Of a DNA stretch of 64,000 nt, positions 32,305-64,000 are shown piece after piece; the first letter of the stretch is position 1, and every line of letters starts with the position of its first letter. The stretch is from Eledone cirrhosa (taxonomy: Eukaryota): positions 284,084,001 through 284,148,000 of the forward strand of contig OZ024743.1 of NCBI GenBank assembly GCA_964016885.1. Reading direction: 5' to 3'. Below the pieces are notes generated by a model. It was given only the letters and a program-made list of their open reading frames with translations. It was not told the DNA's origin and searched no databases. A program made the translations under genes and the position numbers.

Positions 32305-35071
32305 TATAAAATATATTTTGTATTTTTCTAAGGATTAAAATCCTTTATATGTTGCAACTTATGTAAATATCCTATTTTGCTCATTTCATTATCACTTCTG
32401 AGCAATGGCAATATGGTGACAGTGAATTGTACTCAAACTGGTAATCTAAACATACAAGGGTGAGAAACTAACACCTAAATAGGATCAGAGAACGCAATAA
32501 CTATAACCACCATCTGTAATTTGGGTCTTCTGAAATTGCCCCTAAGCGTTTTCAGCCTTAGCTGAGCTGTGAAAGGTCCTTCATTCTCTGGACAGTGGCC
32601 CTTTAGCTGTTGATATACTGATGATGTTGTCTTCAATCTATCCTCAATCAGTGCAGATGTGGTTTGTCTTCTTTAGCTTCGTCACCAAATCAAGTAGTCT
32701 ATGGTCATCTCTAATTTATTTTGATGTAAGCAAGGACATTTTTATGTATTTCTCAAATCATGAATGATAATGATAATGATTTCAAATATAGGTAAAAAGC
32801 CACAAATTTTATCAGAAGGTATGGTTGATTATATTAACCACAGTAATTCATGGGCATTTATTTTATCTATTTTACTTCATTGGTATTTATTTTATTGATC
32901 ACATAAAAATGTAAGTCTTGGTGGGATTTAAACTCAAAATCATGTAATCAAATATCATAAGACAATTTGTTTGGTAGTCAATAATAATGAAAATCATAAT
33001 AACATTGACACACAATCACAAATTTAATTTTCAGGACAGGAATATATTTAATTGAATCAAATCTAGTTTATTACTGAAACTTATTGTTTTCCCAGTGGGA
33101 TCAAAACCAAAGGCAGTCTTGCTGAGGTTTGAACTACAAACCATTAAAATTTTATTCTGGAATTTAATTGTTTGTACTATATCAGGAAACAACAGATTGA
33201 ATACCTTACACCACTTGAAAATATCCAAGGAAACAAAACTGATGATGTAGAATAACACATGATAAGTCTCTATATTCACAGGAGTTTTAGGAGCAGAGAA
33301 GAGTGATGGAAACTATGTATATTATTTTCTTAAAAGTATGGTATTAGAAACCCCCTTCCTAGGTATCATGCCAGAAGTTATAAGCTGTTATTATACCCTT
33401 TTAGAGACATTAACAATCTACCTGAAATGATTGAAGCTCATAATTGCCCCTGTCTCATAGATTACATCATTTTTACTCCATATTAATAAAATAATTATGA
33501 TTATTTTAGACTAAACAAAAGGTCAGTGAACAGAATTAATCAAGAAATGTGGCACATGGAGCATTGCATTTTCTATCAGTTTAGCTACCAGTTACTAGTA
33601 TATAAACTATATATTTCAAGGGAGGAATTGGGACTATTTGTCTCTTCATACAAAATGCTTGTAAAATACACCTTTTGCCTCTACATCATTATTTAACATT
33701 ATATTTGGATTTATATATCATTTGTTAATTTCTATATATAAATATGTGTACACAAATATTCCAGAAAGGAGATCAATATAAACAAGCTACAGTGATGTCA
33801 AATACCTACACATGCAAAACTCCTATGAGAATATTTTGTAATCATGCTCTGTAGAACTGACATGATTCCCAAAACCATCACCAGTTCAAAATACCTTTTA
33901 ACTATTCTCAGCATGTGCTCTTTACAATATTTTCTAAACACCAACTCAATAGTTCAGAGAAGATTATCAAAGATAATAAAATAAAATAAAAAATAGGTGA
34001 GCTACTATGGAAGTTAGTCATCAGATAGAAATATCACTTCCAAAATATATGGGGAATAACTAAGGGACTTACAAATAATATATCCAGTTTATGGCTTCAT
34101 ATTTGTATTAATGGCCATTAGTGCATTTTGGTTATGTGAAGAAATCCTTTAGAAAGTTGCACGTTGGAAAGAATGGAATGAACACAATTGTGTCATAAGC
34201 CAGATCGTATTGTATTTTGCACATGATCAAAAACATTCTAGTTGTGATTATGCCTCTTTTTAGAAGTATATAAAACTAAATTATGAAATCTGTCTTTTTC
34301 TTATTTAAAATAGTAGGGTATTATTTCAGAGGGATTTTACTGCTATTTTAGCAAGTCAAGCAACCATATACAGGCGTTCTTGTTGGCTTGAACAGTCAGA
34401 TAATGTATCCATCAATGGTGATCTCAAAATTGGCAAAACAGCTGAAAATTTACACAAAACTATCTCAAAATCAAATAAGAAAATATTGACATTTTGATGA
34501 ATGATTAATCCTTATACTGATAAAATAATTAAAATAAAGATTTAAGAATGCATACATATATATAAATATTGTATATGTATATTAGTAATTATACTAATAT
34601 TTAATGTTCTTGAAAAACTGATATAAAAATGATATTTTTCAGGAAACAAAACATTGGTTTTTACTGCTTCACTATTTACCATCATAGTTGTCATTATTGA
34701 AAGGAATCAATGATGAGGAATTTCAAAAGGAAATTTAAGAAGAAAAAGATTTTTAAAAATAAAACCTGCAATTTTCAAAGAATCAGTGAAGTTTGTTAGC
34801 TTTTTCATGATCACCATCATAATAAACATAAAAATATAAACTATATATATATATATATTCCTGCATATACACATTCACACACACATATGTAGATATATTG
34901 AATCACACAGCAATCTTCATATGTACACAAATAAACATACTTGAGTATATAAAAATGTACAGTTATGCATATGTGCATATATAAATAATTATGTATGCAT
35001 GTGTATAAATATAGAACCACACACACACATGTGTGTGTATATATATATATATATATATATATATATATATA

Positions 35072-35730
35072 TAAACGAACTAAGGAAAAAATTAGAAATA
35101 AGAGGGATCAGATGTTGTTTACTCGAGAGAAGGCTACGTTGGTATGGTCACGTGATGTGCATGAAAGACGACAGCTGTATAACAAAGTGCAGGGCAATAA
35201 AGATAGATGGTAGCCACGGAGTAGGCAGACCCAGAAAAACCTGGGACGAGCTGATAAATTCCGACCTCACACACTTACACCTCTCCAAGACAATATCACT
35301 GGACCGAGACCTTTGGCGGTACTCAGTAATAGAGAAGACCCGCCTTACCTAAATACAAAGTAAAACCTACTACAGTCAGTAGGCATCTCTAACAAAATAC
35401 ACCCCCGTCCCACCACCTCCACACCGACCCTTTCAATGTAAAGTTATGTTGGTGTCACAACATCCAGGCCGAAACAAATGAGATCGTATAGGTGTCACGA
35501 CAAAAAACACACAGTCCACGCTGTAATGTGGCCATGTAGGCAACACGGTAAAAACCTCCCAGTCCCACACTGTAAATGTGGTTGGTGTTAGGAAGGGCAT
35601 CCAGCTGTAGAAAACCCGCCAGACAGTCCTATGCGAGCAAGACAACCACTCTTGCCTCAAGTGGGAAAACTCCCGTCCAAACAAATGCAAGCGTGGAACA
35701 TGGACGTTAAACGATGTTGATGATGATGAT
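35072..35730 (+). mobile_element. RTE LINE 3' end (family A)
   Basis: RRLRWYGHV...GRPRKTW ORF end, 3' UTR and (GAT)n tail; near-identical to 44907-45763 and 60258-61567. Confidence 0.93.
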
Positions 35731-36257
35731 ATATGTACATAACTTCTGTTAGCCAACTAACAGAGAAAGAAGGACAAACATGGACAGAGATATGAACTCT
35801 CCTTTCAAAATATTTATTATTATTATTATTATTATTATTTATATAAATATGGAACTTAACCATATTATGCATATCCGCAGTTGACAATGCATATAATGCT
35901 GAAACCGGTACCATTATTAAATACGGAAATATCCTCTTTATAAATAAATAAATATCTTGATATTAAACTGTAAGAATCTCTTCAGCATTTTCTACTGAAA
36001 AAATCTTTTTCCTTTCTACCATTTGTTTTTATATATATCAACTCATGTGTTACTTTTCTACATTCGATATACATATATATATATATACACATATATATAT
36101 ATACATATAATTATACATATTTAGGTTTGTTGGTTCACCACCGGATAGAATTGATCATTCCGTATGGTCAATCTTGATGCAATATTATGGAAAGTACTCA
36201 ACGTAGTGCAGTTCACTCGTCTTCGTTTGTGTAGTTGGTGGTGCGAATATGGAGTTA

Positions 36258-37145
36258 ATTATTATGAATTAAATAACAGGAGGCTGGACTGGTGTAAATC
36301 CTTGAAAAGGATCATTTCAATGACCGGGTTCCGTATGAATCCGATGATATCATCAGGTATTCGAAATATAACAAAGGAATATATAAAAATCCATGGGTCC
36401 CAAAATCAGAGACAGAGAGGACAACTGACCAACTAGCTGTTTTCACCTTGGTCAGTCGCCCTCAAGTGATGGCTATTCGGTCTACTAATGACCATCTGGT
36501 GAAGGGGCAAAGGCTTATAGTGTACTACCACCTCTCCGTCAAAGAATAAAAAAAGAGAAGAAAGAAGAAAGTCAGCGTAAGGGTCACACTAGTCAGACAA
36601 GAACATTTCTTTTAACTCTTAATTTTTTTAACTTTTAATTTAATTTCATCCTTTAACTCTTAACATAAGTTAACGCTCCAATTTTCTGTTCACACATTTG
36701 ACCATACAGACACCCATTATATATGCCTTTGTTAAAATATAGGTTCTTTGGAATAACATTTTTCGCGGCGTTTTCTTGCCTGACTGTAGTGTGACCCTTA
36801 CGCTAACTTTTCTTCTTTCTTTCTTTCTTCTCTTTTTTTTTATTCTTTGACGGAGAGGTGGTAGTACACTATAAGCCTTCGGCCCTTCACCAGATGGTCA
36901 TTAGTAGACCGAATAGCCATCACTTGAGGGAAACTGACCGAGGTGAAAACAGCTTGTTGGTCAGTCGTCCGCTCTGTCTCTGATTTTCAGACCCATGGAT
37001 TTTTATATGTTCCTTTGTTATATTTCGAATACCTGATGATATCACCGGATTCATACGGAACCCGGTCATTGAAATGATCATAGTATAATAAACTTTTCAA
37101 GGATTTACACCAGTCCAACCTCCTGTTATTTTATTCATTATAATT
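36258..37145. repeat. Inverted repeat (about 345-370-bp arms, about 170-bp spacer) carrying an HHR; Penelope-like cassette
   Basis: 36258-36603 is the reverse complement of about 36773-37145. Confidence 0.9.
37029..37086 (+). ncRNA. Minimal type I hammerhead ribozyme
   Basis: ATAC-CTGATGA-[TATCACCGGATTC ATACG GAACCCGGTCATT]-GAAA-TGATCA-TA|GTAT: intact core, 4-bp stem I, palindromic hexamer at stem III, AUA site. Confidence 0.85.
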
Positions 37146-37452
37146 ATACATATATATACATATACATATATATACATATACATATATATATATATATATA
37201 TATATATACATATATATACATACATATATATACAGACATATATACATACACATATATATACATACACATATATATACATACATATATATATACATACATA
37301 CATATATACATACATACATACATACATATATACATACATACATACATACATATATACACATACATATATACACATACATATACATACATATATATATGCA
37401 TATATATATATACATACATACACATATATATATACATACATATATATATACA

Positions 37453-62612: not shown

Positions 62613-62900
62613 GTAAAGTTATGTTGGTGCCACAACATCCAGCCCGAAACAAATGAGGTCGTGTAGGTGTCACGACAAAAAAAAACACACAGTCCACGCT
62701 GTAATGTGGCCGTGTAGGCAACATGGTAAAAACCTCCCAGTTCCACACTGTAAATGTGGTTGGTGTTAGGAAGGGCATCCAGCCGTAGAAAACCCGCCAG
62801 ACAGTCCTATGCGAGCAAGACAACCACTCTTGCCTCAAGTGGGAAAACTCCCGTCCAAACCCATGCAAGCGTGGAATATGGACGTTAAACGATGATGATG
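62613..62900 (+). mobile_element. RTE family A 3' UTR
   Basis: Matches 35439-35730; (GAT)n tail. Confidence 0.9.
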
Positions 62901-63270
62901 ATATATATATATATATAATATATTAATATATTATTATTAATATACTATATATATATATATATATAATATATATATGATATATATATAATATATATATATA
63001 TATATATATAATATATATATATAAATATATATATATATAATATATATATATATATATAATATATATATATATATATATATATATATATATATATATATAA
63101 TATATATATATATATATATATATATATATATATAATATATATATATATATATATATATATATATATATATATATATATATATATATATATATATATATAT
63201 ATATATATATATATATATATATATATATATATAATATATATATATGATGAAAAAAAAAAAGATGATGAAT

Positions 63271-63510
63271 ACAGGACACGTCAAAACAGAAACTGACCAC
63301 ACAAAATTCAAGAAGTCTTTGGACAAATTCCTCCAAGTAATCCCGGACAAACCACCCACAACCGGATATGTCTCCGCAAACAGTAATTCTCTTCTCGAAT
63401 GGGCCATGGTGCCCAAATCCTGAATTGAAAGACTTCGCCAAGTGGTGCTATTAAGTTAGACATGGCCTAGGCCAATACTGGCCAAAACATTTCAAAGTTA
63501 TTCAAAGTTA
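63271..63510 (+). mobile_element. CR1-group LINE 3' end
   Basis: Reverse complement of 38497-38722; terminal TTCAAAGTTA repeat. Confidence 0.9.
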
Positions 63511-64000
63511 TATATATAATATATATATAATATATATATTATATATATATATTATATATAATATATATAATATATATATAATATATATATAATATATATA
63601 ATATATATATATATATTATATATTATATATAATATATATAATATATATATAATATATATATAATATATATAATATATATATATATATTATATATATATAT
63701 TATATATAATATATATATAATATATATAATATATATATAATATATATAATATATATATATATATTATATATATATATTATATATAATATATATATAATAT
63801 ATATAATATATATATAATATATATATATATATATATATATATATATATATATATATATATATAATATATATAATATATATAATATATATATAATATATAT
63901 ATAATATATATATATATATTATATATATATATATATAATATATATATAATATATATAATATATATATAATATATATATATATATATTATATATATATATA

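What the first reader, a model, noticed from the sequence alone, without database searches (positions are those of the whole stretch)
34840..64000. Dense cluster of type I hammerhead ribozymes from several families in (TA)n-flanked cassettes inside a Ca-channel intron
Seen: intact CUGANGA/GAAA/UH motifs with paired stems I and II at 37029(+), 43327(-), 45918(-), 46121(+), 52241(+), 53211(-), 54125(+) and 61974(-). Single-change variants at 42847, 43058, 48436 and 59821, and partial copies near 36311 and 42386. Flanks are largely unrelated. Established: type I HHRs with a palindromic stem III mark Penelope-like elements and non-LTR retrozymes in animals. Inference: a diverse, largely non-coding ribozyme-bearing retroelement system in this genome that the ORF track does not show. 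Whether these families are already catalogued cannot be judged from here.
Basis: partly seen in the sequence, partly recalled or inferred. Interest (0 to 1): 0.92.

Follow-up and report, generated by a model that had tools for sequence, protein, structure and literature searches.

The report
Penelope retrotransposon ends carrying altered ribozymes
These are the broken-off tail ends of at least nine families of jumping genes, each with a hammerhead-ribozyme motif, piled up in TA repeats inside a calcium-channel intron; this is a known kind of element, but two abundant families carry a changed letter in the normally fixed catalytic core, which could test whether these elements need their ribozyme to cut at all.

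Summary
Observation confirmed. All 8 intact type I hammerhead (HHR) motifs are present; 0 of 300 shuffles reach that count. Four one-change motifs and two partial ones are present too. They form 11 insertions of 9 families in a ~102-kb intron of an L-type Ca channel gene of a likely octopod genome.

Four families (B, C, H, I) are 5'-truncated, often inverted 3' ends of Hydra-clade Penelope-like elements. Full copies elsewhere encode RT plus GIY-YIG with the Hydra motifs. Three (A, D, E) are ORF-less tandem units of 2011, 483 and 541 nt, like retrozymes. F and G are unassigned. The cluster follows (TA)n density and nested insertion and is shared with LINEs.

Hydra elements, their HHRs, TA targeting and one octopus family are published. 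New here: two 'single-change variants' are fixed in their families. U4A occurs in 100 of 100 listed of 14,817 pattern matches, and U4C in 99 of 100 listed of 2,587, the latter with an intact ORF. Among 78 HHR motifs near metagenomic Hydra relatives, 77 have U4 and none has A4. Cleavage and expression are untested.

The parts
36118..37146 (.). Family A fold-back insertion: inverted arm 36118-36603 with damaged HHR (C3 36356, minus) and forward arm with intact HHR (C3 37033, predicted cut after 37082, U.U at the base of stem II). Elsewhere a 2011-nt ORF-less tandem unit.
   Evidence: 1,406 first-look candidates genome-wide
42352..42489 (.). Family G small palindrome with a partial HHR (core at 42420, minus; 5' strand of stem I replaced at the junction)
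42773..43286 (.). Family F fold-back; both arms carry private core changes (42894- G8A, 43063+ G12C), other copies have canonical cores; partner unknown
   Evidence: 1,533 candidates
43260..43440 (-). Divergent relative of family B (HHR C3 43385; 95 of 133 aligned bases identical to the B end)
44806..44899 (-). Family H tail only, no HHR
45872..46333 (.). Family B fold-back: two divergent HHRs (45974-, 46129+), arms 96% identical; 3' end of Hydra element B
48325..48980 (-). Family H 3' end (Hydra element, 3259-nt unit) with family-fixed U4A core (C3 48481, predicted cut after 48441)
51242..52437 (+). Family C 3' end with short inverted 5' piece (51242-51385); HHR C3 52250; Hydra element C
53080..53357 (-). 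Family B subfamily end, HHR C3 53267, with a perfect 80-nt palindrome at its 5' side (53278-53357)
53744..54285 (+). Family D: about one ORF-less unit plus tail, HHR C3 54129 (predicted cut after 54205); 483-nt tandem unit elsewhere
   Evidence: 1,553 candidates
59431..59910 (+). Family I 3' end (Hydra element, about 4.2-kb unit, intact 832-aa frame in L276) with family-fixed U4C core (C3 59825)
61803..62266 (-). Family E: ORF-less unit with HHR C3 62047 and a long hairpin stem III; 541-nt tandem arrays elsewhere
   Evidence: 2,028 candidates
22495..22570 (-). Family H copy truncated at the HHR core (U4A), outside the finding
9549..9670 (-). Old relative of family H (78% identical), also with A at core position 4; stems I and III kept, loops changed
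4198..4332 (-). Cav1 (L-type Ca channel alpha-1) exon, domain IV S4; the whole cluster lies in the ~102-kb intron upstream of it

Best explanation
The cluster is a pile-up of 5'-truncated, often inverted 3' ends of at least four Hydra-clade Penelope-like retrotransposon families plus ORF-less hammerhead-bearing tandem units that are likely mobilised by them, all inserted into (TA)n runs of a Cav1 intron. SHOWN: full elements of families B, C, H and I elsewhere in the genome have one RT-GIY-YIG frame with the HHR in the flanking pseudo-LTR on the same strand. Copies end at two or three fixed points 70-330 nt behind the HHR core and mostly join (TA)n. A, D and E occur as head-to-tail units without a long ORF. 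INFERRED, from published PLE biochemistry: the element protein nicks (TA)n and starts reverse transcription at internal sites just behind the HHR. It usually stops early, and often adds a second, inverted copy, which leaves HHR-bearing stubs between TA runs. The TA runs remain targets, so insertions nest. The HHR would cut multimeric read-through RNA to unit length, as a dimer where stem III is a short palindrome and as a monomer in E and H, probably weakly or with protein help. Families H (U4A) and I (U4C) amplified with non-consensus cores, so full-speed cleavage is likely not needed for mobility. The window's copies are most likely passive passengers with no role for the channel gene.
For: Partner ORFs: 734 aa (L051), 724 aa (L281), 645 aa to a frameshift (L277) and 832 aa (L276), 39-53% identical to each other, with RWR, DKT, YRDD and CxCX5C motifs. 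HHR-ORF-HHR tandems of 3259 nt (H) and 4196-4200 nt (I); HHR directly 5' of the ORF in C; HHR about 1.35 kb 3' of the ORF in B. The endonuclease search gave 61,205 first-look candidates, 150 scored, all 92-100% identical (not a copy number). Of 191 copies examined, 121 are followed by (TA)>=4 and 46 have an inverted HHR within 1.5 kb upstream. Tandem periods of 2011, 483 and 541 nt; longest Met-to-stop frame 99 aa. TA runs make up 25.7% of the cluster against 2.1% of the left half. Craig 2021 (sections 3 and 11, passages, Files S1/S2) defines these traits for Hydra. Frangieh 2024 (first half read) shows internal RT starts, the tail, a protein-assisted HHR, and insertion in vitro without HHR cleavage.
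Against: No partner was found for A, D, E, F or G, and no sequence link between those units and a Hydra element was shown. No cleavage or expression data. In the 11 correctly registered rows the HHR fold lies 1.1-9.3 kcal/mol above the predicted minimum. Inverted arms are only slightly more alike within a locus than between loci in five of six families, so the origin of the inversion is unresolved. The automated TA call was met by only 8 of 30 H copies. Pfam does not recognise the partner ORFs as RT; the assignment rests on motifs and homology.
Confidence: 0.9

Rival explanations
1. All cassettes are free-standing non-coding retrozymes that spread through small circular RNAs, independent of coding elements.
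For: D and E form head-to-tail arrays of 483 and 541 nt; the E monomer folds better than all 100 shuffles (z -3.1); the window's D copy starts 6 nt before a predicted cut site (one case).
Against: B, C, H and I are collinear with the ends of RT-EN elements. D and E show the same fixed 3' ends, TA junctions and (for E) inversions as those elements.
Confidence: 0.07
2. Sub-question: the U4A and U4C cores are dead relics, and families H and I spread with no ribozyme activity at all.
For: U4 is kept in 77 of 78 motifs near metagenomic Hydra relatives. U4C lowers activity in vitro (PMC3088659). HHR mutants did not block insertion in vitro for a Poseidon element (PMC11167929). Full H and I units hold no second canonical HHR.
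Against: U4C recurs in several diverged motifs with intact, differing stems. A 78%-identical H relative keeps A4 and stems I and III while the loops differ (one case). The U4C viroid variant stays infectious.
Confidence: 0.4
3. The ribozymes were kept in this intron because they regulate Cav1 pre-mRNA processing.
For: 8 of 14 motifs are sense to the Cav1 transcript, including E with a monomer-type stem III; inverted arms could form long hairpins in pre-mRNA.
Against: No orientation bias (8 against 6). Window copies are 94-100% like many dispersed copies, and several are damaged (F pair, A inverted arm, G). LINEs co-cluster. Each family has over a thousand candidate places.
Confidence: 0.03
4. 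Chance matches in AT-rich DNA.
For: Short motif, 30% GC, no Rfam hit.
Against: 0 of 300 shuffles; covariation; fixed position in element ends.
Confidence: 0.005

Closest known systems
Hydra clade of Penelope-like elements, e.g. Hydra-1_Obim (Craig et al. 2021, PMC8557442)
   Same: Single RT plus C-terminal GIY-YIG ORF; DKT; CxCX5C linker; no CCHH; CxxC and CxH; type I HHR in the pLTR, often with U.U at the base of stem II; (TA)n target; partial tandems and inverted 5'-truncated copies. The published Obim N-terminus is clearly homologous by eye.
   Different: At least four further families, 39-53% identical to each other. RWR instead of RWK. Units of 3.3-4.2 kb against 'generally <3 kb'. Very high abundance, where the paper lists one octopus family. 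Two families have non-CUGANGA cores, while every Hydra-clade HHR in File S2 reads CUGANGA.
Animal non-LTR retrozymes (Cervera and de la Pena 2020, PMC7229834; Li et al. 2026, bioRxiv 10.64898/2026.07.22.740005)
   Same: ORF-less, low-GC tandem units with one type I HHR per unit (D, E, A); proposed there as non-autonomous PLE derivatives.
   Different: Units of 483, 541 and 2011 nt against about 220-400 nt; mostly single truncated or inverted copies in (TA)n; circular RNA not shown; neither paper mentions octopus.
PLE minimal and variant HHRs (Cervera and de la Pena 2014, PMC4209133)
   Same: Palindromic short stem III, dispersed single motifs from truncated PLEs, pairs on opposite strands 100-700 bp apart.
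   Different: Their family-level core variant is U3-A8; position 4 variants are not described in the parts read.
Natural HHR core variants (Perreault et al. 2011, PMC3088659)
   Same: U4C known from a viroid; U10.1.U11.1 known.
   Different: U4A does not occur in the main text (figures not visible); here the variants are fixed in thousands of genomic copies.
Poseidon element PAc of Anolis (Frangieh et al. 2024, PMC11167929)
   Same: Two RT start sites giving an optional tail; AT-rich target.
   Different: Different clade; PAc starts at a site not homologous to the target, while the ends here tend to sit at TAT/ATA words (suggestive only).

Membership tests
Type I hammerhead ribozyme | Core CUGANGA / GAAA / UH with stems I-III in type I order | tested here: met
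   8 motifs; shuffles 0 of 300
Type I hammerhead ribozyme | Compensatory changes in stems, free N7 | tested here: met
   family B group only:
Type I hammerhead ribozyme | U at core position 4 (families H and I) | tested here: not met
   A in 100 of 100 listed, C in 99 of 100 listed
Type I hammerhead ribozyme | Match to an Rfam hammerhead model | tested here: not met
Type I hammerhead ribozyme | Self-cleavage after H17 | not testable with these tools
   needs in vitro assay
Hydra-clade PLE (B, C, H, I) | One ORF, RT with C-terminal GIY-YIG endonuclease | tested here: met
   whole in one frame for B (L051) and I (L276); the C and H copies fetched have a frameshift in the EN region
Hydra-clade PLE (B, C, H, I) | DKT motif and CxCX5C linker | tested here: met
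   4 of 4
Hydra-clade PLE (B, C, H, I) | RWK motif | tested here: inconclusive
   RWR in 4 of 4; RWK and RWR both occur among homologs
Hydra-clade PLE (B, C, H, I) | No CCHH in EN; CxxC and CxH around conserved E and N | tested here: met
Hydra-clade PLE (B, C, H, I) | HHR in the pLTR, sense strand; tandem or inverted copies; (TA)n target | tested here: met
Hydra-clade PLE (B, C, H, I) | Placement in the Hydra clade on an RT tree with reference PLEs; no IFD | not tested
   the tree (quick method) held only database homologs; reference proteins compared by eye
Naiad PLE | N-terminal EN, CxC domain, no canonical HHR | tested here: not met
   EN is C-terminal and an HHR is present
Non-LTR retrozyme (A, D, E) | ORF-less head-to-tail units, one type I HHR each | tested here: met
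Non-LTR retrozyme (A, D, E) | Monomer of a few hundred nt | tested here: inconclusive
   D 483 and E 541 are larger than published units; A at 2011 nt does not fit
Non-LTR retrozyme (A, D, E) | Expressed as linear and circular monomer RNA | not testable with these tools

The most novel reading that the evidence does not exclude
An octopod genome has been overrun by many Hydra-clade Penelope elements and their retrozyme-like parasites, and one family with about 15,000 copies uses a working hammerhead with A in place of the conserved U4, a natural core not found in the papers searched, made active by its stable stem III or by the element's own protein.
Probability: 0.3. Interest if true: 0.7.

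Novelty: new variant of a known kind. Interest (0 to 1): 0.48.

Why it matters
The role of the hammerhead in endonuclease-bearing Penelope-like elements is stated as unclear in Craig 2021, and cleavage was dispensable in vitro for one element (Frangieh 2024). This genome offers a natural comparison. Sister families C (U4) and I (C4), both young, and the very large family H (A4) differ at a core position that is U in 77 of 78 motifs near other Hydra relatives. If H cleaves, the natural hammerhead consensus widens and standard CUGANGA scans miss about 15,000 motifs in one genome. If it does not, a PLE reached that copy number with a dead ribozyme. Either result is cheap to get. The find also suggests that Hydra elements, described from few families, are a large part of an octopod repeat landscape that Pfam and Rfam do not flag. 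The cluster in this intron is itself ordinary.

Tried and rejected
Rfam scans: no hammerhead hit. Pfam on partner ORFs: no RT or GIY-YIG family. First guess of Naiad was dropped after reading the clade definitions. Search for a coding partner of family A: none in 25 loci of +-1.5 kb or in 4 longer stretches; it turned out to be a 2011-nt ORF-less unit. No partner was seen in the fetched loci of D, E or F; Hydra hits there were not collinear. G was not searched genome-wide. Test of whether inverted arms copy one template: within-locus divergence was below between-locus divergence in 29 of 37 usable pairs, but the means are close except in family I; inconclusive (6 of 43 pairs dropped for gaps or divergence). 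Microhomology at 3' ends: TAT/ATA words are seen, but the background is 6-17 per 100 nt and no formal test was made. Four of 15 rows were mis-registered by one base; their coordinates were redone and their energies not used. Sequencing runs: no RNA holder listed for family H. Three contig runs were laid: they cover the element and cannot show expression or cleavage. The published Hydra-1_oBim HHR word was in 0 of 285 loci. The careful tree did not finish; the quick tree is used only for C being sister to I and for grouping with two Argonauta proteins. Earlier-findings look-ups returned nothing. Literature searches behind the absence claims: hammerhead+octopus (of 4 listed only Craig 2021 is relevant), core variants and U4A, octopus+Penelope. 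The library lacks most subscription papers, figures were not visible, and the bioRxiv supplements of Li 2026 were not seen.
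Full report
SETTING. The window is G000:C4:284084001-284148000 of a 3.0-Gb genome in 1,796 contigs, 30% GC. Named homologs of its elements come from Argonauta and Octopus bimaculoides, and a cuttlefish Cav1 stretch matches its exons at up to 94%. An octopod cephalopod is therefore likely (inference; not pursued further). An L-type Ca-channel gene runs on the minus strand, with four domain IV exons between 5 and about 4332. 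No upstream exon was found in the rest of the window; the next lies at C4:284190428. The finding thus sits in one intron of about 102 kb.

OBSERVATION. None of 300 shuffles comes near (mean 0.007-0.013, maximum 1), and the left half has no strict hit. The four one-change and two partial motifs are also present. In eight family-B-like motifs 7 of 20 pairs change on both sides (0 of 500 shuffles; related sequences). Across 97 such motifs only N7 varies freely. Rfam does not detect them. Stem III is a short self-complementary segment in B, C, F and I and in A and D (by eye), and a longer hairpin in E and H.

WHAT THEY BELONG TO. Genome searches with eight cassettes gave 534 to 2,028 first-look candidates each, with the best 40 at 94-100% identity (lower bounds). 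Mapping natural copies back on the window resolves 14 motifs into 11 insertions of 9 families. A flank of one family B locus encoded a GIY-YIG endonuclease. Searching with it gave 61,205 candidates, of which 150 were scored, all 92-100% identical. Longer stretches showed full elements. B has a 734-aa frame, its HHR about 1.35 kb downstream on the same strand and often an inverted HHR upstream. C has its HHR directly before a 724-aa frame. H is HHR-ORF-HHR over 3259 nt. I is HHR-ORF-HHR over 4196-4200 nt, with an intact 832-aa frame in L276. The four proteins are 39-53% identical and carry RWR, DKT, YRDD and CxCX5C; the endonuclease lacks the cysteine pair between GIY and YIG. These match the definition of the Hydra clade in Craig et al. 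2021 (PMC8557442; I read the abstract, sections 3 and 11, passages, and supplement part 2 with Files S1 and S2). That paper lists Hydra-1_Obim, (TA)n insertion and canonical HHRs. Families A, D and E occur as head-to-tail units of 2011, 483 and 541 nt with no Met-to-stop frame above 99 aa. That fits non-LTR retrozymes (PMC7229834, passages) and their proposed origin from PLEs (bioRxiv 10.64898/2026.07.22.740005, part 1 of 5 and passages). F has canonical cores in other copies, so the window's two changes are private decay; F and G have no known partner.

ANATOMY AND MECHANISM. Of 191 copies of eight families, 121 are followed by (TA)>=4 and 46 have an inverted HHR within 1.5 kb upstream; most families end at two or three fixed points behind the HHR (junctions). 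This matches the partial tandems, inverted truncated copies and tails described for PLEs. It also matches the two internal reverse-transcription starts measured for a Poseidon element, whose HHR cut only with protein and was not needed for insertion in vitro (PMC11167929, parts 1-2 of 4). I infer that the element protein nicks (TA)n, primes on the RNA just behind the HHR, usually stops early and often adds an inverted second copy. The flanking TA remains a target, so insertions nest. TA runs cover 25.7% of the cluster and 2.1% of the left half, and AP-endonuclease LINE remnants share the region. The HHR would trim multimeric RNA, as proposed in PMC4209133 (parts 1-2 of 4), where metazoan PLE HHRs cleaved weakly and as dimers. 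None of this was assayed here. The origin of the inverted arm stayed open, and the HHR fold was never the predicted minimum-energy fold in the 11 usable rows, as expected for a core of non-standard pairs (general knowledge).

THE UNEXPECTED PART. Pattern searches with core position 4 left free gave 14,817 exact matches for family H, with A in all 100 listed, and 2,587 for family I, with C in 99 of 100 listed; the reversed-pattern controls gave 0 (the listed rows are the first 100 on contig C1). Among the 17 bystander H copies, not selected on that site, 15 have A at position 4, 1 has C and 1 is gapped. Full H and I units contain no second canonical HHR. I is young (median 1.1% pairwise divergence) and H older (8.3%). 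On the quick tree I is sister to C, which keeps U4. C4 also appears in several diverged bystander motifs with intact stems, and a 78%-identical H relative at window 9621 keeps A4 with stems I and III but changed loops. In contrast, 62 of 77 metagenomic loci with Hydra-like ORFs held 78 HHR motifs, 77 with U4, one with C4 and none with A4; the same scanner recovered 29 H motifs in 30 H loci. U4C is known from a viroid, with reduced activity in vitro but enough in vivo; 'U4A' does not occur in the text of PMC3088659 (section 8 and passages), and searches listed no hammerhead paper with it. Older mutagenesis work in subscription journals probably tested engineered U4 changes (recalled, not checked).

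WHAT IS KNOWN. The kind of element, its HHR, TA targeting and presence in octopus are published. A 2026 O. vulgaris annotation counts 30 recently active Penelope families but does not mention Hydra, hammerhead or ribozyme in its main text (PMC13282606, passages). I found no description of these families, of octopod retrozyme-like units, or of family-fixed position 4 variants.

VERDICT. The feature is real and explained: new families of a known kind in a generic insertion hotspot, most likely without function for the channel. The family-fixed U4A and U4C cores make it a new variant and give a direct test of whether PLE hammerheads must cleave. Interest 0.48.

Noticed in passing
loci L001-L285 (about 0.97 Mb of G000 flanks): Dozens of further distinct HHR motif types turn up as bystanders near TA runs, several with C at position 4; the genome's HHR diversity is far larger than the nine families in the window.
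   Followed up: partly
window 38500-41660 (minus): Near-full AP-endonuclease/RT LINE remnant (Pfam RVT_1, Exo_endo_phos) between TA/CA runs; a 3' piece of the same family lies at about 63250-63510.
   Followed up: partly
window 43712-44365, 44907-45760, 46460-47560, 49254-51218, 60260-61564: Several LINE fragments (RT and endonuclease hits for 49254-51215; RTE-like by recalled motifs), nested in the same TA runs.
   Followed up: partly
window 44450-44790, 47630-47975, 53380-53720: tRNA-derived SINE copies (Rfam tRNA hits at 53386-53449 and 47911-47968) whose 3' part resembles the LINE 3' ends.
   Followed up: no
window 56836-57296: Five copies of a 93-nt tandem repeat inside an element at about 56550-57830 embedded in a very long TA array; unidentified.
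   Followed up: no
L002/L003 (G000:C1:56024560 region): A Hydra B endonuclease fragment begins with the reverse complement of the family B tail, next to further B copies: nested and inverted insertions of one family.
   Followed up: yes
window 53744-54285: The D copy starts 6 nt before a predicted cleavage site and runs one unit to the next, as if templated by ribozyme-cut or circular RNA; single case.
   Followed up: partly
window 45872-46231, 36256-37146, 42795-43173: Long inverted repeats in the Cav1 intron could form double-stranded pre-mRNA, a possible substrate for A-to-I editing (speculation).
   Followed up: no
L277:411-578 laid on run X5: A contig from a run with a different organism code and study spans the family H core with no difference, so A4 is not limited to this assembly.
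   Followed up: partly
L286-L362: Hydra-like RT-EN elements with canonical HHRs are common in marine metagenome assemblies (342 matching stretches).
   Followed up: partly
window 19818-20078: Old fragment (72-81% identical) of the family H 3' region without the HHR.
   Followed up: partly
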